From Atractiella rhizophila (taxonomy: Eukaryota): 63,551 nt of DNA. The DNA lies in the NCBI GenBank assembly GCA_021432655.1, contig MU271244.1, forward strand, positions 62,214 through 125,764, written 5' to 3'. Under the pieces are notes generated by a model. The model did not search any database and had not been told where the DNA came from. It saw only the letters and a list, made by a program, of their open reading frames with translations. Position numbers and translations under genes: made by a program. This document shows positions 1-63,551 of the stretch, one piece after another (position 1 is the first letter of the stretch; every line of letters begins with the position of its first letter).

Positions 1-3000
1 GTTCCGAAGAAAGTATATCGACATTTAAGGGACGGAGATGTTCTCATTCTGAATCGTCAACCCACTCTTCATAAGCCCAGTATGATGTGTCATGTTGCGA
101 AGGTCTTGACCGGAGAAAAGACAATTCGAATGCATTACGCCAATTGGTCTGCACTCCATATCTTTCCCTGATACCTATTTCCTGAAGATGATTTTAGCAA
201 TTCATATAATGCCGACTTCGATGGAGACGAAATGAACATGCACTTCCCTCAAAACGTCATTGCTCAAGCTGAAGCTCGCCTCATCGCCAATACAGATAAC
301 CAATACCTCGTTCCGACGTCGGGAGGTCCGATCCGTGGCCTCATCCAGGACCATATTGTTGCTGCGGTCTGGATGACAAACAAGGAGACCTTTTTCACTC
401 GTCAGGAGTATTATCAACTCATTTATGGCGCGTTAAGACCGGAATCTGACTACACTGGGGAGGGGAGGATAATCACCTTGCCGCCGACGATTTGGAAACC
501 TCAGAAGCTATGGACTGGAAAGCAAATAGTTCGTTCCTCTTTTACTTATATTAATTCTGGAGCCTCATGTCTTCCACCAGATCTCAACAGTCCTAAGAAA
601 TATCACTCCTCGCAAGTTTAGCGGACTCAACATGTCCTCTGGGACGAAGGTTGAGGCAAAATACTGGGGTCCTGAATCAAAGGAGGACAAGTTCATCATC
701 TCGGATGGCGAACACATCTGCGGTATCCTCGATAAAGCCCAATTTGGAGGCAACGGACTCGTCCATGCCGTGTACGAGGTTTTCGGTGCTTCAGTGGCAG
801 GAAAGTTGCTCAGCATCCTCAGTCGACTCTTCACGAAGTACCTCCAGCATCGAGGGTTCTCNNNNNNNNNNNNNNNNNNNNNNNNNAAAAGCTGAAGCTA
901 GATAAAAAGCTATATCGAGAGCGTCCACGCGCTGAAAGACGTAGTCAAACTAGGGGTCGACTAGGACGGCTCTGGTGTCTGTAGAGCAGTAGCGAAGGTC
1001 GTCGCCGGCACAGCAGCAGCAGCATTAACTGGAAAACGGAGCTGACACGACGGGCAAAGCGTAGCAGCCGTAGCGGCAGAAGTCCCAGGAATAGCAGCAG
1101 TGGAAAAGATGGTTACCCTGCCAGAAGAAGAAGGCGACTCGCAAGCGGAGGACGGCGAAACTCCCCTGCTGGGAAAGGATCTCAACAGGGACTTAAAAAC
1201 CTGAGGGACAAGGCAACTGCGTCGAGGAACAACTACAGCCGAAGTTTTTACCCGTGCTTCGACCACACATCCGACCTCTCTTGACAAAGTCTTAGTTACA
1301 CTTTAAGGAGGTCTATGAGGTGAAGTCCTATCTTCAACTCTACTTACAGCATCTAGGAGCAAGCGGGTAGAAGAGGGACCCTAAATAGCCTGTCGGCAAG
1401 AAGATGCTGTTGCCTGAGTTATTAAACCGACTCTACCTCTCGCCTTCAGAACCACGTTTTAGCAGAGTCAGCTAGGACTAGCAAAACTTGCAGCCCTCCT
1501 TCCTTCTCTGCGTAACAGCCACAAAAACCTCAAACCCTCCGTCAGTACTATTAAAGAGCCTCTGCTCCCTATGGGTTACAGTGTAATCGTCGAGGTTTTG
1601 GACTTCGCCTGAGTTGCACTCTTGCCTTACTTTCTACCTTGCGTGGTCTATTTACTTTCCACAAGTTACAGTAGACGCAGCTGCCAAGGGGGTTGTGATT
1701 TACAGGGAGTCAACAACTGTCTAAATTGACAGCTACTGTGTTGAGTGGAAACTCTCCGGTCGTCCGGCTGACTAAGAGGGCGAAGGTGGTTCGATGCGTA
1801 TATGGCGTGTAGGTCGTATGAAACCTTCCGGCTACCAGCTTAGTAGAAACGGTTGCGGAAAAGGCACTAAAGCGGAGAAAGAAAAAAGAAGCCGAACTCA
1901 TCAAACAATCCTAAGCAGAACTACATCCGAACGCGAAGGCGCATCATAAAGAGTCTGCATGAAGGTTCCATACGGCAACCTAACTTGAAGCTATTTCGAC
2001 AAAGGTAGCTGCTCCTTAGCCCACTGAACTTCTATGAGAAGCGCATTACGGGACGTTAAAGTAGTTATTGAGACGGAACTTCTAGAGACCCAGATATCTT
2101 GACTCGCTCTCTCAGCATCAAGAAACGATGCTTAAGCTTTAGTATGTCGTTCGAAGACGAAACACTGCAGCTCTCTTAGAAGCGGCATTAACTTAACCTC
2201 TTACCAGGATAGCGATAAGGCTTGCCACACCAGCATTACTTGAGCTTAGGGAAGATTTACAAACTACTCTGTAGCAACTTCCATCGGTCTAGCTGATCAA
2301 AACTGCCGCCATAGCTACTCTGGGAGGGCGGGACGGTATGTTACCTTCATCATAAGGACACCGACCTAGGGGCAATTCTTTGCAACGCGTTGTTTTGGTG
2401 GTCGAGCTCCTGCCCAGAGTTTCCGAAACTTTCTGCCCTCCCAGAAAGGTGATTGGTAGCAGCCATGTGCTGCGGGAAGCTCGCGAACGACTGGATTGCT
2501 GCTCCTCTAAACTCTCCGTAACTGTTCTGAAGGAAAGCGAGGGCTTTAGCAGTAATCGACGTAAACTAACGCGCCCTTGTCAAAGCTCTCTGGTCGAGGT
2601 CACGTTACGAACAAGCGGAGACGGGTGTTAGGACGGTATCGACAACTTTATCAGCATAGGTCTGGTCGACTGAAAGACAGCAGGGAGTTTTGAAGGAGGT
2701 AGGAGTGAGCTTCCAAGCAGAGTTTGAGACCCCATAGGGAGAACCGAAACAGATCAGGATGTTTGAATATGTTGCGGAGGTTACAGGCAAGTACTCGAAG
2801 GGGTTCTCAAAAAAAGGAGAAGTAGAGCCGAAGTCCAACTTCATGCTCTAGAAGCTGTGGCGTACTCTTGGGAGCTACGACCTCCATGAAGCACTTCTGG
2901 AGAGGATGCGTGCGCTAGAAGGCGAAATCGTTACTTCCTCTCGTTATAAATACGTCTCCCAGGTACAGTTCGATAAGGATGCTGGCCAATGGTGCAAGAT

Positions 3001-3755
3001 GCAGTTCGAGGTACGCATTACTCCTCTACATAAGTGCTCAAACAGAAGTTGTATCAGCTCGGAGCGAATCAACCTAAACTTCTATTAGTTGGTATCGCTG
3101 AGAAAGCTTGTTCCAAGGCAGTCGTTCGAGCCATTCCGGGAATCGCAAATTGCTACCTAATAGAGCCCGAAAACAAAAATGAGGAGGTAGGCACGCCTAT
3201 ATGTGTTGCATCAATGGCTGACGCTTATTTCAGCGACATCTCTTCACAGAAGGAGCCAACATTCGGGCCTGTTGGGAATTCGCGTTTGGTACTGCAGACT
3301 TGACTAAGCTAATGTCCAACGATATTGCGGCCATACTAGAGACGTACGGAGTTGAAGCAGGTAGAGCTAACATCATAGCGGAGATGCGTGGCATCTTTAA
3401 AGCCTACAAAATCGACGTTGACTTCCGCCATCTTTCTTTGATTGCTGATTATATGGTGCGTTGAAATTCCAAGACAACCAGCTATCTGATCCTTTGTTAG
3501 ACTTCGGAAGGTGGCTTCAAACCTTTTAGTCGACGCGGAATAGCTACAAGCTCCTCCCCTTTTGCGAAGGCGTCCTTTGAGACAACGGCTGACTTCTTGT
3601 CCGAGGCTGTTCTTCATGGCGACTTCGATGATCTACTCAATCCTTCCGCCAATATTGCTATTGGTAAAACTATGAAAGCAGGAACCGGAACTTTTGATCT
3701 TCTCAGTTCTTTCCAGAAAACGGTTAAGGATAAAAAGGAAGAATTCAGTTATTGA
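1..3755 (+). CDS. RPA190: RNA polymerase I largest subunit (5'-partial, multi-exon; middle part present only as mirrored sequence 887-2898)
   Basis: Catalytic [16 protein letters not shown] at ~205-252; [35 protein letters not shown] up to the gap. The reversed block encodes [36 protein letters not shown] and [15 protein letters not shown]. C-terminus has [35 protein letters not shown] and GTGTFD; TGA at 3753-3755. Confidence 0.97.
862..886. other. Assembly gap (25 N)
   Basis: Run of 25 n. Confidence 1.
887..2898. other. Mirror-image (reversed, not complemented) segment holding the middle of RPA1
   Basis: 2898->2865 read backwards equals 828-861 exactly (34 nt). Backward reading continues FSCGVEDLVLQPEAEM...[46 protein letters not shown]. 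Confidence 0.98.
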
Positions 3756-48188: not shown

Positions 48189-49111
48189 GACGCGTCTTCA
48201 CATGAAATTGAGCGTCTTTTTCGGATGATTTCTGAGCGCAGCTTTCATGCTCAACAAACTCTTTACGCGCATTTACTGACACCTCCCAGCCTCTGTGCTC
48301 CCATTACTCTAAGAGAGAACAATCATTCTGTGAATAGCAAAAAGCCCAACATACACCTATGACTCTACAGTATTTGCCCAGAAGGCAAGATCTCAACTTT
48401 GTTGGTTGCCACCAAATCTGGCCAAACCATCGCCTTGGACCCAAGTTACCCAGAGCCAGAGCCATTGAGCAGGAGCAAGAATTGGAGGGCAGAGCGCCTG
48501 AATCCAAGCTACTATGTCCCAACCAACCACCCGCTCCCGCCCCTCGAACTACTCTTCAAGCAACCCCCCTCGTCCGACCGTTCCACTTTCGAACGGTTCT
48601 TCAAAAAATCAAAGTTGTGACGGTGACGGGACGGGTGGCCAAAAATGCCGTCCGTCCCGGACCCGTCACCCGTCTTGACGGCGACGGTGCAAAGCCCTAG
48701 CGACGCGTCTTCACATGAAATTGAGCGTCTTTTTCGGATGATTTCTGAGCGCAGCTTTCATGCTCAAACTCTTTACGCGCATTACTGACACCTCCCAGCC
48801 TCTGTGCTCCCATTACTCTAAGAGAGAATCAATCTTTCTGTTAACAGCAAAAAGCTCAACATACACCTATGACTCTACAGTATTTGCCCAGAAGGCAAGA
48901 TCTCAACTTTGTTGGTTGCCACCAAATCTGGCCAAACCATCGCCTTGGACGCAAGTTACCCAGAGCCAGAGCCATTGAGCAGGAGCAGCATTGAAAGGCA
49001 GAGCACCTGAATCCAAGCTACTATGTCCCAACCAACCACCCGCTCCCGCCCCTCGAACTACTCTTCAAGCAACCCACCTCGTCCGACCGTTCCACTTTCA
49101 AACGGTTCTTC
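48189..49111 (+). repeat. Direct duplication of ~410 bp (48189-48602 / 48702-49111) covering the EXO84 promoter and first ~29 codons
   Basis: Colinear copies with substitutions and small indels, separated by a ~99-bp spacer. Confidence 0.95.
48603..48699 (-). mobile_element. Probable hAT-type DNA transposon/MITE end fragment
   Basis: Minus-strand terminus TAGGGCTTTGCAC followed by nine GACGG/CCGTC subterminal repeats in ~70 bp; no partner end or target-site duplication found. Confidence 0.5.
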
Positions 49112-56498: not shown

Positions 56499-58361
56499 AT
56501 GCCTAGCGCCAACGAAGAAATCGCTCAAATCGTCGCTCAGACGCAAGCTGGACAAGTCTCGAATCCGTGGGAAGAGATAGCGGTCGTCGTACACTCTTTA
56601 TTCTTTCCTACTTATCCAGACAGCGCCAAAGGACAATTCATATTCATCAGCGTCGTCTATGCCATTCTCCTCCTCCTTGCCATTGCCTGGTGAGCTTTTT
56701 CGAGGCCCTCCCTTCTTGAACTAGCTCACAGCTAATGACAGCTTGTGGCTACGACGAAAATCCCTTCCGTTCTTCCGCAGAGTCGGTGAGTCTGCTTTGG
56801 TGTCCGCTCTAGCGCACTGTGGGTGGAACTGATCTACTGTTGTAGACGGTTACGTTGTTGTCAATACCCCAATTTTGTTCATTGGCCCCATCGCCATCTA
56901 CCTCATTTTGAGTCAAGCTGCAATATGGAAGACGATTGCAATCCTGGACGGAAAACGAAACGGATCTTACGAGGGAATTTACATCCTTCGTGCTGGTAGC
57001 TGTACGTGGTGTTTCTCCGTTTTCCAATGCCGAAGTCCGATGACGTGCACTTTCAGGGACGTTTTTGTACATTGCTGGTTGGTACAAAGTAGGCTATTCC
57101 CTTCCAGTGCTGCGAGAAAGCGGATCTGATTGCTTTCAGGGTCTGGGTACGCTCATCGAGTCCAAGTTCACTTCGCAAGCCATCCAAAAGTCCAAATTCG
57201 CGGCAACGACTGGACGTAAGACTCGGCTCAGCTCTCTCGTCGCCGCCTACGTTGTCCCGGCTCTGCACTTCATTTGGCTCTGGCCATTAGCAGGAGCGGT
57301 CTCGGCTGTGTGCGATGATGCGTACCACAAGTGGGAGCGACTAGAAGACGAGGTGGTGCGGTTGGCCGAAACCAACAATCTTGCCACTTTCGCGTCAGAC
57401 CTTCAAACGCTCCTTGGCCCGCCTCTGCAAGACTTGCAAGATTCTTCAAACCAGTGTGTGCTTGTGCAACGCATAGATTATGCCACTATACTCGCATGGG
57501 TCATCTTGACACTCGGAAGCGTGGGTGGAGTAGCGTTTTTCGGGATGAGGAAAAAGCTACGACAGCAAGTGGAACTACACGAGAAGCTGGCGCAGGATTG
57601 GAAGGAGCTCTCGTTCAAGCAGGGCCTTGCGCTCTCTTACCAAGGCTCTGATCAGAAGGGTATGGGTTTATGAATTCAACTCTAGTTCTATTTCGTTGAC
57701 AGTGTGAGGATAGTCCGATTGATGAAGATTGCTGCTACCGATCTGACCGTTCAAGGCATCGTCTATTTTGGATGTACCGTCTCGTGGTGCTCGGCTCTCA
57801 TTGTCATCACTGCTGTTGGTACTCGAGGGCAATTAAATGTGGGTATCTCCCCAAGTCATTGGGTAAAAGGTGCTGAAAGTGAAACAGGGCGACCTTTTCG
57901 TGGCGATCCAACTCTGGGCCTTCTACACCTTCACCCTGCTCGGGATCCCCGCTCTCACTTCCTCCCTTCGTTCGGCCTGGATCGAAGGCGGTGCTCCGCC
58001 TCTGTACCTTCAAAACGAGCTCCTAAACACCGCTACCAGCGGGAACGTCTCAGGACAGGAGACGCCAAAGTTCAGGACACCCCCAATGAGCACTGGGTCA
58101 GCTTCTCCGCATGGTGCATCACACCTTCTACCCCACCGAACCTCTCCAGCTCCTGATTTCGCCCCTCATACCGCTCAATCCTTCGGATCGATAGCTCATC
58201 CCGAACCTCAATCCCCTGATCAGAATTTTCCCCAACAGTTCTCACAACAAGGTGCACAGTGGTTCCGACCCGCTTCGACCACGACAGAATCTACAGGTCC
58301 GAGTTATAACTCTTACGGATCGAACTCTCAAGATGGCATGATGCAACACGGTCCTCGTTAG
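56499..58361 (+). CDS. Hypothetical polytopic membrane protein with Ser/Pro/Gln-rich tail
   Basis: About 6-7 hydrophobic segments across exons (FIFISVVYAILLLLAIA; ILFIGPIAIYLILSQAAIW; YVVPALHFIWLWPLAGAV; TILAWVILTLGSVGGVAFF; LWAFYTFTLLGIPAL). Confidence 0.6.
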
Positions 58362-58608
58362 AAGACAGGGAGTGTATGACTTGTCCCACCGTAATTGTTG
58401 TTAAATAGGAGAAGTTGGTTAATACTTAATTCCCCATGTAACCTCGACTATGTTTTGTTCATCACTTGAGCCCAATTGATGAGCTTACAGAACGACATGA
58501 GTTTGCATGAGAACCCAAAGAAGAACATGAGAGACGACTGATACTCCATGGAAGACGCTTGTGCTAACTGCGGTAGTTGAAGATAGGCCATACTCATCTT
58601 AGACAAAC

Positions 58609-60621
58609 TTATTCAGAAGTTGAACCTTCGTTTTCGTAGGCTTCTAGCCTGGCAGCTTGCCTAACATGCAACATGAAATTAGCCATGTTTCCTTATGGTG
58701 GATAGGAGAGACGAACAACTCTTTGTGGGCCTCTTGCCACCGCTGCAGCTTGGCAATTTCGTGCACATTAAAACCGAAGATTTTCGGCCTGTCGCACGCA
58801 AGATCAACTTGGATGCCAAATTGCGAGACAACCGAACCTGTAGATAGATACCACGCCATTATTCTTCCCAGCAGTGCTGCTTCCCGCCTGATTTCCGCCA
58901 GAGCCAGAGTTGGGAACGTGTTTAGGAGGGACCATGTGAGGGTACATCATGAACAGCATGTGAGGAAAGGTAGTCCCAAAGTATGCTCCATCGATGCTTC
59001 CATGTCGGGAACTCTTGGGTGAATAGATATCCTCACATCGAGGGCAATAGAGCTTGACGGCCTTCTGATACGAGATATCGGAGAGTCCGACAGGAAGGAG
59101 GGGTTGACCGTAGCAGAGAACGCGGGGACAGCGTCCGAAATCAGCTTTCTTGTATTTCTCAATCTAAAGTTCTTTTAATCGGCGCCCCTAAAAAGACAGA
59201 TGGGGGTGTTAGGTGGTTATGAGGAGGTTTAGCTGTTTGGAAACCATAGAAAGTCGTTGCTCTCCGACTTCGAGCAAACCTCCTCTTTCCCTACGCTTTA
59301 GCAGTAAGGAACCACTTCCACACTAGAGAGGAAGAGAGTAACCCTTGCGTACCCGAGGAAACGTTATCTCTTTACAGTGGGAAGTTGAACTTATACTCAT
59401 CGTCTCTCGGTCACTAAGTCCACGACAGGACTCACGGTAGACGTTCCTGCTTCCGTCTAGTAGGTCCAAAAGGCACATCAGCTATTTATCTGGTTACCTA
59501 TGGGAGAATGTACAGTCTAACTCACGCCTGTTTTCGACACGGGATAGAGTAAGGGCTGTGGTGCTAGTCCCGTTGTAGTTCTCCTAACAAAGAATCGATC
59601 TTTCTCTCTCGTTGTCGACTCGTGTAGATAACCCGTGAGACCTTCCAGTACTTCAACACCCTAGGACACGACCATTACAAACCGCTTCGCAGCTCTTCCG
59701 CCGTATTTTAGTTCTTCAAGAAATACACTGTTCTTCTGGTGTTCGAAAGGTACGCCTCGTCTGTTCGTAACTGCTCTAGCTCTGTACTTGGTGGTTATTG
59801 CGGAACTGGAGAAAGAGGGGGTTAAAGAATTGTTGCCGCGCGCTGGGTTCTTCGCTTTCCAGCTCGTCCATTCCTAAAGCCGTAGACGGAGGAGTTTTTT
59901 ACCTAACTTTAACTACTTCTCGTCTGGTTCCTTCTATCAGCATGGAAAAGTTGCAGACAGATAGCTCCCCTCGATAAGAGTAAGAGGGACCTCATCTTCT
60001 TTGAAATTTTGGACTGGGTTTCTTGCCGCGAGGCCTTTTTAGGAGCGTTTGCTTCCTTTTGTTTGCTTCTATAGGGTTGAGTAGAACTCTTGAATCTGTA
60101 ATTCCGATCGGGATTCGCCCATAGTCTTGTTCTAGTCTTGCTAGTTGTCGTGCTCCTTCTAGTCCTATATTAGTCAGACATGGAGAGATAAACACCAAAC
60201 CTAGTTTCTATTACCCTCTACACTTCACCTACTTGAAAGCTGCCCCAGACTAAGTCTGATGTGGTGGTCGACCTAAAGAACCAAATACGTTTGGTTTCCT
60301 TTACTCATGAAAAACACTGCAACTGCTCCTCATATAGGAGCTGGCGAAGTTAGACTGCCCCGACTTACGCCTTCAAGTAGTAATATCAGTTCGAAACCTT
60401 GAGTATTGCCTAAGAAACCCACGTAACTGAGGAAAAGGGGACGCCAATGTTAGTGACTAACACCCTCGTCTTCTCCTCGACTCGCTGCTAAGTGCCCTTT
60501 GTCAGCTCTCGGTTCGTGCAGTAGAAATGCCAGAATAAGTACGTGCGAAATATCAATGGCAGGCTCCTAACGTCTTTTACCGTGCAGAGGTGTCTAAAAT
60601 ATAATTAACCTTGACTTTCGT
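58609..60621 (-). CDS. CKB1: Casein kinase II regulatory beta subunit (5' half lies in the mirrored segment; start unresolved)
   Basis: True minus strand: [66 protein letters not shown]. Complement-only reading of ~60240-60580: [60 protein letters not shown]. Confidence 0.95.
59167..60621. other. Second mirror-image (reversed, not complemented) segment
   Basis: CK2-beta exons read only as the complement of the + strand taken left to right. After flipping, an intron is rebuilt across the junction (gcacgt...aactgaaagca|tag). Confidence 0.95.
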
Positions 60622-60646
60622 NNNNNNNNNNNNNNNNNNNNNNNNN
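60622..60646. other. Assembly gap (25 N)
   Basis: Run of 25 n. Confidence 1.
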
Positions 60647-60701
60647 TTGAACCAACTCCAAGCTGGCCTTTGAGATTCGAGCCTGCACCAAAGACTTTCA
60701 T
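60647..60701 (-). CDS. Possible N-terminus of an RCC1-repeat (Ats1/Kti13-like) protein running into the gap
   Basis: MKVFGAGSNLKGQLGVGS matches the RCC1 signature GSNxxGQLG; only 18 codons visible. Confidence 0.45.
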
Positions 60702-62466
60702 GTCATCGAGTTAAAATTATTCGTGGTTCTCTCTCCTGCTATGGCCACGTGATTTGCACAAAAAACGCAGCAAAGTTGGACTCGAAAGGTAAAGACAATG
60801 ATAGTTTCAGTGATATCAGACCCAGTACGGGAGTAGTCTTTGTCACTCATCCCAGCTATATAGTCCAAGCATTATTGGCTAGCTTTGACAAGGAATAATT
60901 TGAAACGATCGTTTACTGCTTACTTTGGTTGCCTCTTAAGTTACTCTCAGAACGCTCTAAAGAGCATACGTATACGTCTCTTCTTTCTGCTTCTTCTTTA
61001 TCTAGTGTAGTTATTTTTATGAATCCTGAGCACTTGTTGAAACTCTGGGATTGCCTCATTGCTCGTTTCATGCCGACCACATTTATCTTCTCCGACCCTG
61101 TGGAAGTTTGAAGATGAAATTTTTCAGGCTAGGGAGGCAAATGTTAATGTACAAGGCTTGATTCGAGGCGCCGAAGGCATCTATTCCAAACCAGATCGAT
61201 ACTTATCCATGTTGCTCTGAATGCTTTGTTGAATGCGGCAGCGGTGAAAGCCCTCGTCCGTGCCAGGGAAGTGGATCGGCGCCTTCGATAATCCAGTTTT
61301 GTGGACCTTGGAAGATATGCGGCGTGCTGTATTCTTCCATTTGGTATCAGATCAGTCATACGGCATTTCCACTACTCATCATCGGAGGTGAAGGCGGTGC
61401 TTTCCTGGATCTTGAGCAGCATTTGACATATCCAATCTCTCAGGATTTGAAGGTGGCGCCGAATTGAAGAAGACCCAGTATAGTTTTGATTATGACGAAG
61501 TTTGTATGATGTTTTGTGAAAAGTGACGGCAAGGGAATGTGGTTTCGCCTGACCAACAAGCAAGTGTAAATGTCAGGGTAGGTCGCCGTGGAGCAACTTC
61601 AGTAAAATCACTGCTAATATGGACGGCATTGGATGCATGGAGACCAGCGTCTAATCGTCATATCACAATGTTGTTCGGCAAGAGGTGGAGACATATGGTG
61701 AATGGTATAACCCTTACGTGTCTCAGAATGCTAGAACAGAATATTCAAATATAAACTGTTTCCGCTGTGTGAACTGAAGGAGTATGCAGATTTGACCGCG
61801 TTGCATTTCGAGTGCTTTGTTAACACCAGAAGAGGAAAAGCCTGACATTTCATCTCAGGAAAAATAGTTCCCTTTTTCTTCTAATGTGTCTGACGCTGGG
61901 GACACTGGCCCTACACTGACACTAGCAGGATCTATGGTCTACAGTCGGGTAAACTCCTTGAGGAGAGGTTTATGAATGACAAATATGGGGGATGAGATTA
62001 TGGTGTAGACTCGCTTTCGACTGTCTGCCATGGCAATATTTTTTTGCGTCGTTATTTCGAAGGCACCTTATAAAAAAGGTCTGTAGATTTAAAAGTTTAT
62101 CGACCTTACTTGATACTCTCTCTGTAAACGCGGTTTATCCATCGTGCACGCGAGCCAGTGAACAAAGGGTCAAATGGATCTGATAATCGCCAGTGGGCGA
62201 AAATCAGTGACAGGTCCATCTGATTCTTTTGTTTTCCAGATCTGGCCGTGTAAGAACCGCTTAAATTTATGTAGTCTCTTTGTCCCTTTCGAGCGATTCA
62301 GAGATAGTGAGGGTCCTTTTGCCTTCACCAACTCCGCATGCTGCAACAGTATAAATGATCCCTCTACTCTGTTTCCCCAACTTCTTTTCTCCCAGCTTTT
62401 CAACCAGATTATTCTAGCCAGAGCATTCTGCGCATATCCTGTCTAACTTCATACCCACTTGATCAA

Positions 62467-63338
62467 ATGGATCCGTTCCAATACAACCCGTATGTGATCG
62501 TCTTCAACTCAGCCCAAGCTTTGTATGTCCCTTCCAAGTGCAACCACTTGTACGCTTATTTGTAACAACGAGCTCCATTTGCCAACTGTTTGATGGCCGA
62601 CTTGACATCGACCGTGGACGACCTCTCACTCCAGCGGAGATCATCTTCGCAGCTTCTGAAATTTCCAGCGCGGCTGAAACGCTAGAAAACCTGAAAAAGG
62701 ACCCTCCTTTCTTCAGAGGTGCGTACCTGAATCATGCAAGTCTGCTAAATGATGAATGATCGGTAACAGAAATTTCTGTTACGGAAACCTATCAAGACCC
62801 TATTGTGTTTGCGGACCGAGTTCTCGAATTTCTCCCAATACTTCGAGTAGCTCTACATCTCGGTCCTCTGGTGTATGCATTGGGAGATCGCCAAAGAGCT
62901 GAACACACAATCACTCTTGTGCGCCATCCCACTTCCACAAATGATCCTTCTTGCTTACAATACAACTAGGCAAATCACCTTCGTGCCATCCTTCATGATT
63001 TTCTTGCTGGAAATCATCCTTTGGTCTCAACTGAATGGATTGCCATCCATCAGAACCATATCCTGCATTGGCCAGAATTGCGAGACCTCTTCGAAGAAGC
63101 TGGCACAGTGGAAGAAAGTGTGGAGGTGAACCGAGACCCAGATTTGCAACTCATGGGAGAAAGCGAACCGGAAGTGATGTGCGAAATTGAGGAACAGTTG
63201 CAGACCATCATTGACACTTGGACGAAGCAACAAGAGTGGAAGACTATGAACAATCGGGAGCGCGAACAATGGTCCCCAGATTCAGATTCTTGGGGAACGT
63301 TATCTTCCACTTCTTCATCTCCTTTTCATTCAGCTTGA
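62467..63338 (+). CDS. Hypothetical protein (multi-exon, uncertain)
   Basis: Successive + ORFs (62538-62759, 63021-63338) with plausible GT-AG introns; acidic C-terminal part; no domain recognised. Confidence 0.3.
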
Positions 63339-63551
63339 CTCGACACTTTCCTTTCCCATTTTTTATCTTCTTGGACTGTGTATAGATGTTGTCCTCGCTT
63401 GTACTTCTGCTCTCAAATCTGTTGCGCTTCTCGTTCTCATTCTCGCATTTAGTTGCCAGTTTCAATTGTCTGATTACCGTTTACAACATGCACTAAATGT
63501 ACCTTCATACTTTTGTTGACCCTCGAAACCAATGTATCTAGCTCATCTCAT

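What the first reader, a model, noticed from the sequence alone, without database searches (positions are those of the whole stretch)
59167..60621. Second mirror block hides the 5' half of casein kinase II beta
Seen: the normal minus-strand CK2-beta exon begins abruptly at ~59163 ([14 protein letters not shown]). The missing N-terminal exons ([38 protein letters not shown]) appear only when ~60240-60580 is complemented without reversal. An A5 run at 60310-60314 has one extra base that frameshifts YF/CD. The signature matches the RPA1 block: adjacent 25-N gap, 1.5-2 kb length, homopolymer error. Inference: a systematic assembly bug. The flipped block may also contain part of another gene (an open frame ...LQPLVAERYQRFVDLEEYWWIVG... 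toward the gap).
Basis: partly seen in the sequence, partly recalled or inferred. Interest (0 to 1): 0.7.

Follow-up and report, generated by a model that had tools for sequence, protein, structure and literature searches.

The report
Backwards-written block hides kinase exons
A 1.45-kb stretch beside an assembly gap was written back to front without being complemented, which hides the first half of an ordinary casein kinase II beta gene; this is a data error in the genome record and not new biology.

Summary
Confirmed artefact. Window 59171-60621 (not 59167) is reversed without complementing. As printed it shares 0 of 1432 20-mers with the other fetched stretches of this assembly; reversed, 1134 of 1432. 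Its first 1110 flipped bases match the other haplotype, contig C631, at 98%, and C631 carries an intact CK2-beta gene. Three public runs have no depth on the block; two spliced contigs run from 59164 into the flipped exon, 30 of 30 letters. The A5 frameshift is an insertion error. The fault recurs at gap edges elsewhere (5 segments in 864 kb; RPA1 and C30 checked against allelic contigs), but is not tied to 25-N gaps. Most likely cause: a long-read gap-extension step (PBJelly-like; not proven). The 'second gene' ORF is unsupported. Side result: the block's last 341 bases belong to another locus (C100), and the window holds both exact reciprocal junctions of a probable heterozygous inversion or translocation, which would explain the unclosed gap. 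The scan reported such mirror blocks before on other pieces of this genome.

The parts
59171..60621 (.). Mirrored block: true sequence written in reverse order without complementing (1451 bp)
   Evidence: 0 of 1432 20-mers found as printed, 1134 of 1432 reversed; depth 0 in 3 runs; edges
59512..60621 (.). Part of the block allelic to C631:2559-3658: CK2-beta 5' exons and upstream region
   Evidence: 1089 of 1110 identical; 7 short insertions in the window, no deletion
60232..60419 (.). CK2-beta exon with the SWISWF / [12 protein letters not shown] motifs, readable only by complement without reversal; its 5' limit and the start codon were not determined
   Evidence: Allelic C631 exon matches PF01214 positions 1-48, E 1.2e-16 and PDB CK2-beta chains, E 2e-19
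60310..60314 (.). A5 run with one extra base; frameshifts the exon
   Evidence: C631 has one base fewer and an open frame
60420..60470 (.). GT-AG intron (51 nt as printed, 48 nt in C631)
   Evidence: inferred from splice motifs and frame, not seen spliced in reads
60471..60580 (.). CK2-beta exon with the acidic loop and [10 protein letters not shown]
   Evidence: Allelic exon matches PF01214 55-88, E 7.9e-9; 30 of 30 letters match the loose ends of X3 and X4 contigs
60581..60621 (.). First 41 nt of a 48-nt GC-AG intron (mirrored)
   Evidence: 47 of 48 identical to the C631 intron once joined to 59164-59170; skipped exactly in X3 and X4 contigs
59164..59170 (-). Last 7 nt of the same intron, in ordinary orientation
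   Evidence: the X1 contig ends at 59170
58838..59163 (-). CK2-beta exon with the zinc-finger motif C-P-x3-C-x22-C-P-x-C; further spliced pieces follow downstream
   Evidence: PF01214 90-169, E 3.3e-34; PDB 1qf8 E 1.5e-33; motif found in the C631 allele; CT..AC joints at 58787-58837 and 58659-58716
59171..59511 (.).
   Evidence: 99.4% to C100 when reversed; single copy in ordinary orientation; downstream ORF has PF00172 and PF04082
60622..60646 (.). 25-N gap
60647..62009 (+). Segment A: ordinary orientation, allelic to C274:23277-24629 and C100:65691-67067, not to C631
62009..62010 (+). Junction A|Y, the exact reciprocal of the junction hidden at 59511|59512
   Evidence: X1 has loose ends here that continue into B after A and carry the T segment before Y
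887..2898 (.). Sister mirrored block inside RPA1; its reversed start repeats the last 34 bases before the gap (828-861)
   Evidence: 99.55% over 2013 bases to C466 when reversed; allele is RNA polymerase I largest subunit, E 6e-104

Best explanation
The block is an assembly artefact. SHOWN: the true sequence is the printed block read backwards; so restored it continues the left flank with no base lost or gained and completes a normal CK2-beta gene with a GC-AG intron. SHOWN on C30: each side of a gap is reversed separately and in place. INFERRED: a gap-filling step built an extension of the contig end from error-prone long reads and, when matching strand, applied only half of the reverse-complement operation; short-read polishing could not then map to the block, so insertion errors such as the A5 run stayed. 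INFERRED: this gap stayed open (25 N) because the scaffold joins two pieces that are neighbours in one haplotype only; the extension followed the other haplotype across a rearrangement breakpoint into segment B and could never meet the right-hand contig. PBJelly is the likeliest program but is not identified.
For: Reversed block matches C631 (98.1%, 1110 bp) and C100 (99.4%, 347 bp) and nothing as printed. C631 carries PF01214 1-169 in one place, E 6.6e-62, and splices to an open frame. Depth 0 on the block in 3 of 3 informative runs; X3 and X4 contigs continue into the flipped exon. All 5 mirrored segments of 30 bits or more in 864,365 non-N bases lie at N runs; none away from one. C30:95874-96171 and 96718-97400 are each reversed in place on the two sides of one gap. 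The RPA1 extension overlaps the opposite contig end by 34 bp unrecognised. Short insertions 3.2 per kb in blocks against 0.86 per kb outside. PMC3504050 (passages) describes flank extension, a 25-N gap definition and overfilled gaps, and suspects inversions behind some of them.
Against: Reads of the assembled isolate itself were probably not tested: X1 has full-depth alleles at 58184 and 58811 found in neither the window nor C631. The runs are contigs, which drop rare variants. No paper describing this bug was found, and the assembly method is unknown. That PBJelly writes exactly 25 N for overfilled gaps is recalled, not read. The insertion excess is measured against another haplotype, so some indels may be real; the RPA1 block (1.0 per kb) is no higher than background. 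Only 7 of 28 gap sides look mirrored, so the trigger is unexplained. Two C2 segments had no allelic copy among fetched loci and rest on the Markov score.
Confidence: 0.97

Rival explanations
1. The mirror was introduced by later handling (format conversion, strand flip of scaffold parts, database loading) and not by the gap-filler. Still an artefact.
For: Any script that flips parts of a scaffold can make this error; the program is not identified; most gap sides are unaffected.
Against: The reversed units are extension-sized pieces flush with gap edges, one overlaps the opposite contig end by 34 bp and they carry more insertions; whole contigs are not reversed. The held genome has the same text as the window, so windowing did not cause it.
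Confidence: 0.2
2. The reciprocal junctions (XT|B at 59511|59512 and A|Y at 62009|62010) are assembly chimeras and not a real inversion or translocation.
For: The one DNA run laid (X1) shows only the other arrangement at 62009: B after A in two variants, T before Y. C274 has a third form, A joined to Y through 40 extra bases of T, so at least one of the two A-to-Y joins is probably wrong. 65 pieces were not shown.
Against: The two junctions are exact reciprocals of the C631 and C100 junctions, with no base gained or lost and only one shared base; two independent chimeras would not do this. B is single copy, so no repeat could mislead an assembler. X1 is probably another isolate.
Confidence: 0.25
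3. A real biological mirror inversion: DNA copied with reversed polarity (parallel-strand synthesis).
For: Only the printed text.
Against: No read support; always at assembly gaps; it would break RPA1 and CK2-beta alleles; no polymerase is known to do this (established knowledge).
Confidence: 0.003

Closest known systems
Casein kinase II regulatory subunit beta (Pfam PF01214; PDB 1qf8, 1jwh, 9tfy)
   Same: Three exons of the C631 allele or window cover profile positions 1-48, 55-88 and 90-169; zinc-finger cysteine spacing and an acidic loop are present.
   Different: Nothing unusual seen beyond a GC-AG intron. In the window the gene is unreadable and frameshifted through record errors. A second CK2-beta paralogue lies on C14 and C551; which fungal subtype (Ckb1 or Ckb2) this is was not tested.
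Overfilled or extended gaps of long-read gap-fillers such as PBJelly (PMC3504050, PMC7757076, PMC9635638; passages read)
   Same: Extension-sized pieces flush with gap edges on one or both sides, residual N run, unclosed although overlapping or overlong, insertion-biased errors, gap over a structural difference.
   Different: The passages read do not mention extensions reversed without complement; the program used here is unknown.
Ordinary inversion mis-assembly or true inversion
   Same: A block is out of order relative to its flanks.
   Different: An inversion is a reverse complement and is found by six-frame search and read mapping; this block is found by neither.

Membership tests
CK2-beta (PF01214) | Profile match over the curated cut-off across the N- and C-terminal halves | tested here: met
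   C631 1-169, 213 bits; exons 61.5, 36 and 118.7 bits against cut-off 27
CK2-beta (PF01214) | Four-cysteine zinc finger C-P-x3-C-x22-C-P-x-C (motif recalled) | tested here: met
   Pattern found in the C631 exon; same residues in P0001
CK2-beta (PF01214) | One spliced transcript joining both halves | tested here: met
   X3 and X4 contigs run from 59164 into the flipped exon, 30 of 30 shown letters; the upstream intron was not seen in reads
CK2-beta (PF01214) | Binds CK2-alpha and forms the tetramer | not testable with these tools
   Needs biochemistry; assumed from homology
Reverse-without-complement record artefact | Printed sequence absent from reads and other contigs; reversed sequence present | tested here: met
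Reverse-without-complement record artefact | Seamless join with the flank after flipping | tested here: met
   C631:3658|3659 corresponds to 60621|59170; intron 47 of 48 identical
PBJelly gap extension | Pieces flush with gap edges, each side handled separately | tested here: met
   C30 both sides; RPA1 right side and CK2-beta left side
PBJelly gap extension | Long-read error profile (insertion excess) | tested here: inconclusive
   13 insertions and 2 deletions in 4105 bases, but compared with another haplotype and not raised in the RPA1 block
PBJelly gap extension | Program known to have been used and to make this error | not testable with these tools
   No code or methods record; searches found no report of the error
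Heterozygous reciprocal rearrangement | All four junctions present and reciprocal | tested here: met
   C631, C100, window 59511|59512 and 62009|62010
Heterozygous reciprocal rearrangement | Rearranged junctions supported by reads | tested here: inconclusive
   X1 shows only the C631/C100 arrangement and is probably another isolate

The most novel reading that the evidence does not exclude
An apparently undocumented strand-handling bug in a widely used long-read gap-filler has written hundreds of 0.3-2 kb blocks backwards in this assembly (3 blocks at 9 gaps in 600 kb picked blind; very roughly 50-800 genome-wide) and would have done the same in other public assemblies, creating false gene losses that neither six-frame search nor read polishing can see. 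Here it also hides one junction of a real, base-exact heterozygous inversion or translocation that swaps the upstream regions of two genes in one nucleus.
Probability: 0.45. Interest if true: 0.4.

Novelty: not a real feature. Interest (0 to 1): 0.2.

Why it matters
Not as biology: the gene is an ordinary CK2-beta and is intact on the other haplotype. It matters as quality control. Mirrored blocks are invisible to six-frame translation, BLAST and read-based polishing, so genes such as RPA1 and CK2-beta look truncated; about 1% of the sampled bases are affected. A forward-against-reversed Markov score finds them in seconds. The probable heterozygous rearrangement is a small, PCR-testable by-product.

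Tried and rejected
Second gene in the block: the 71-codon frame is the same in C100, has no Pfam match, no usable Atlas hit (which shows neither absence nor novelty), and 203 of 500 shuffles reach that length; the Zn(2)-Cys(6) gene nearby starts further downstream by inspection; not excluded as a small exon. Segment B or A as a transposon or LTR end: B is single copy. A 42-bp target-site duplication: seen only in C274 (40 extra bases); the window's two junctions are exact. 25-N gap as signature: fails. Inversion versus translocation: following C274 and C100 outwards did not link them. RNA raw reads X22: nothing laid, no test. Reversed search of two C2 segments found no allelic copy among fetched loci; as printed they hit only themselves while their neighbours hit many repeats. 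Gene right of 62009: no Pfam match for three exons. Literature: five searches for the bug (listings only) and passages of five papers gave no report of it; supplements were not opened and software forums cannot be searched, so 'not in print' is not shown.

Full report
Observation. The window has two 25-N gaps, at 862-886 and 60622-60646. Translating 58400-60621 in the six ordinary and six mirrored frames shows the CK2-beta C-terminal exon on the minus strand from 59163, and the N-terminal exons only in the complement read left to right. A Markov model trained on the window scores 9 of 127 bins as reversed: four on this block, four on the RPA1 block, and one stray bin.

The assembly holds its own control. 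The window is G000:C65:62214-125764, and the assembly carries second haplotypes as separate contigs. C631 has the whole PF01214 domain in one place (positions 1-169, E 6.6e-62), whereas C65 has only the second half. Reversed without complementing, window 60621 to 59512 matches C631 at 1089 of 1110 positions. C631 base 3658 corresponds to 60621 and base 3659 to 59170, so the block is 59171-60621 and the join loses no base. As printed the block shares 0 of 1432 20-mers with the other fetched loci; reversed, 1134 of 1432; the flanks show the opposite pattern (945 of 1452 and 1154 of 1435 as printed, 0 reversed).

The gene. In C631 three exons, separated by a 48-nt GT-AG and a 48-nt GC-AG intron, splice to an open CK2-beta frame; the same model on the window breaks at the A5 run 60310-60314. 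The exons match PF01214 and solved CK2-beta chains. The start codon and any earlier exon were not determined.

Reads. Four runs were laid on 57300-63551. X1, X3 and X4 have depth 0 in all seven bins from 59181 to 60643; X1 has 250-540 on both flanks; X3 and X4 cover mainly the left flank; X22 laid nothing and is no test. X3 and X4, which show intron skips and so behave as RNA, each have a contig that leaves the window at 59164; the 30 letters shown equal window 60579 to 60550 read backwards, 30 of 30. The transcript therefore joins the flipped exon across the GC-AG intron. Limits: these are contigs, and X1 is probably not the assembled isolate (alleles at 58184 and 58811 are in neither the window nor C631).

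How general. The RPA1 block 887-2898 reversed matches C466 at 99.55% over 2013 bases, and its first 34 bases repeat the contig end before the gap. An order-5 model, trained each time on other contigs, was run over 864,365 non-N bases with 14 N runs: 5 segments reached 30 bits, all at N runs. The C30 case was checked: 95874-96171 and 96718-97400 are each reversed in place on the two sides of a 543-N gap and match C490. The two C2 segments could not be checked against an allele; a weak sixth candidate on C2 has a 74% reversed match over 156 bases. Two 25-N gaps on C100 have no mirrored side. Short insertions run at 13 in 4105 aligned bases in the four checked blocks (2 deletions) against 37 in 43047 outside (24 deletions); this block has 7 in 1110, the RPA1 block only 2 in 2013. 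Earlier notes of this scan describe mirror blocks on other pieces of the genome; I did not check their loci.

Mechanism. No known enzyme makes a reversed, uncomplemented copy (established knowledge); software does so by doing half of a reverse complement. Units that are flush with gap edges, reversed side by side, sometimes overlapping the opposite contig and insertion-rich point to a long-read flank-extension step (inference). The PBJelly paper describes flank extension, defines gaps as 25 or more N and describes overfilled gaps, some suspected to sit on inversions (PMC3504050, passages); PMC7757076 and PMC9635638 describe extended and overfilled gaps (passages); PMC6240028 mentions the 25 minimum (passages); PMC8081667 had nothing relevant (passages). 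None of the passages reports this error, and five searches found none. I put artefact at 0.97, a gap-extension step at about 0.75 and PBJelly itself at about 0.5.

Why this gap did not close. The last 341 bases of the flipped block (59511 to 59171, segment B) do not match C631 but C100:67068-67408 (99.4%), and the sequence right of the gap (60647-62009, segment A) matches what precedes B in C100 and the allelic C274. C631 reads X-T then Y; C100 reads A then B; the window has X-T then B (hidden in the block) and A then Y (62009|62010). The two window junctions are exact reciprocals with one shared base, and B is single copy. The simplest reading is a reciprocal inversion or translocation in one nucleus (about 0.75): the scaffold links X to Y as in one haplotype while the sequence follows the other. 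Against: X1 shows only the C631/C100 arrangement, and C274 joins A to Y through 40 extra bases of T, so one A-to-Y join is probably mis-built. Inversion or translocation could not be told apart.

Verdict. Not a biological feature; modest value as a quality-control lesson, with a small testable rearrangement as by-product. Interest 0.2.

Noticed in passing
window 59511|59512 and 62009|62010; G000:C631:2558|2559, C100:67067|67068, C274:24629-24669: Four exactly reciprocal junctions suggest a heterozygous inversion or translocation; C274 has 40 extra bases at its junction.
   Followed up: partly
window 60581-60621 plus 59164-59170: 48-nt GC-AG intron in CK2-beta, spliced out in X3 and X4 contigs.
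   Followed up: yes
G000:C551:18671-24282 and C14:183456-184513: Second CK2-beta paralogue; C551 shows its C-terminal part twice about 4.6 kb apart with identical scores, possibly a false tandem duplication.
   Followed up: no
G000:C30:95874-97400: Both sides of a 543-N gap are mirrored separately; checked against C490.
   Followed up: yes
G000:C2, right of the N runs ending at 2919, 15188 and 160743: Further mirror-like segments by Markov score; no allelic check possible, one weak reversed match.
   Followed up: partly
window 62394-63338 (+): Spliced plus-strand gene (GT..AG skips in X3) with no Pfam match for three exons; an X3 contig crosses from T into Y, so the breakpoint may lie in its 5' region.
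   Followed up: partly
L106:1709-4354 (G000:C100): Zn(2)-Cys(6) fungal transcription factor with an 881-codon stop-free stretch; C1144 is allelic only from about C100:71833.
   Followed up: partly
G000:C30 93000-100000: Three contigs (C30, C490, C921) carry this locus at 94-97% identity, more than two haplotypes would give.
   Followed up: no
G000:C100 38627-52569 against C274: C100 repeats several kb around its 25-N gap at 48697-48721, as an overfilled gap would.
   Followed up: no
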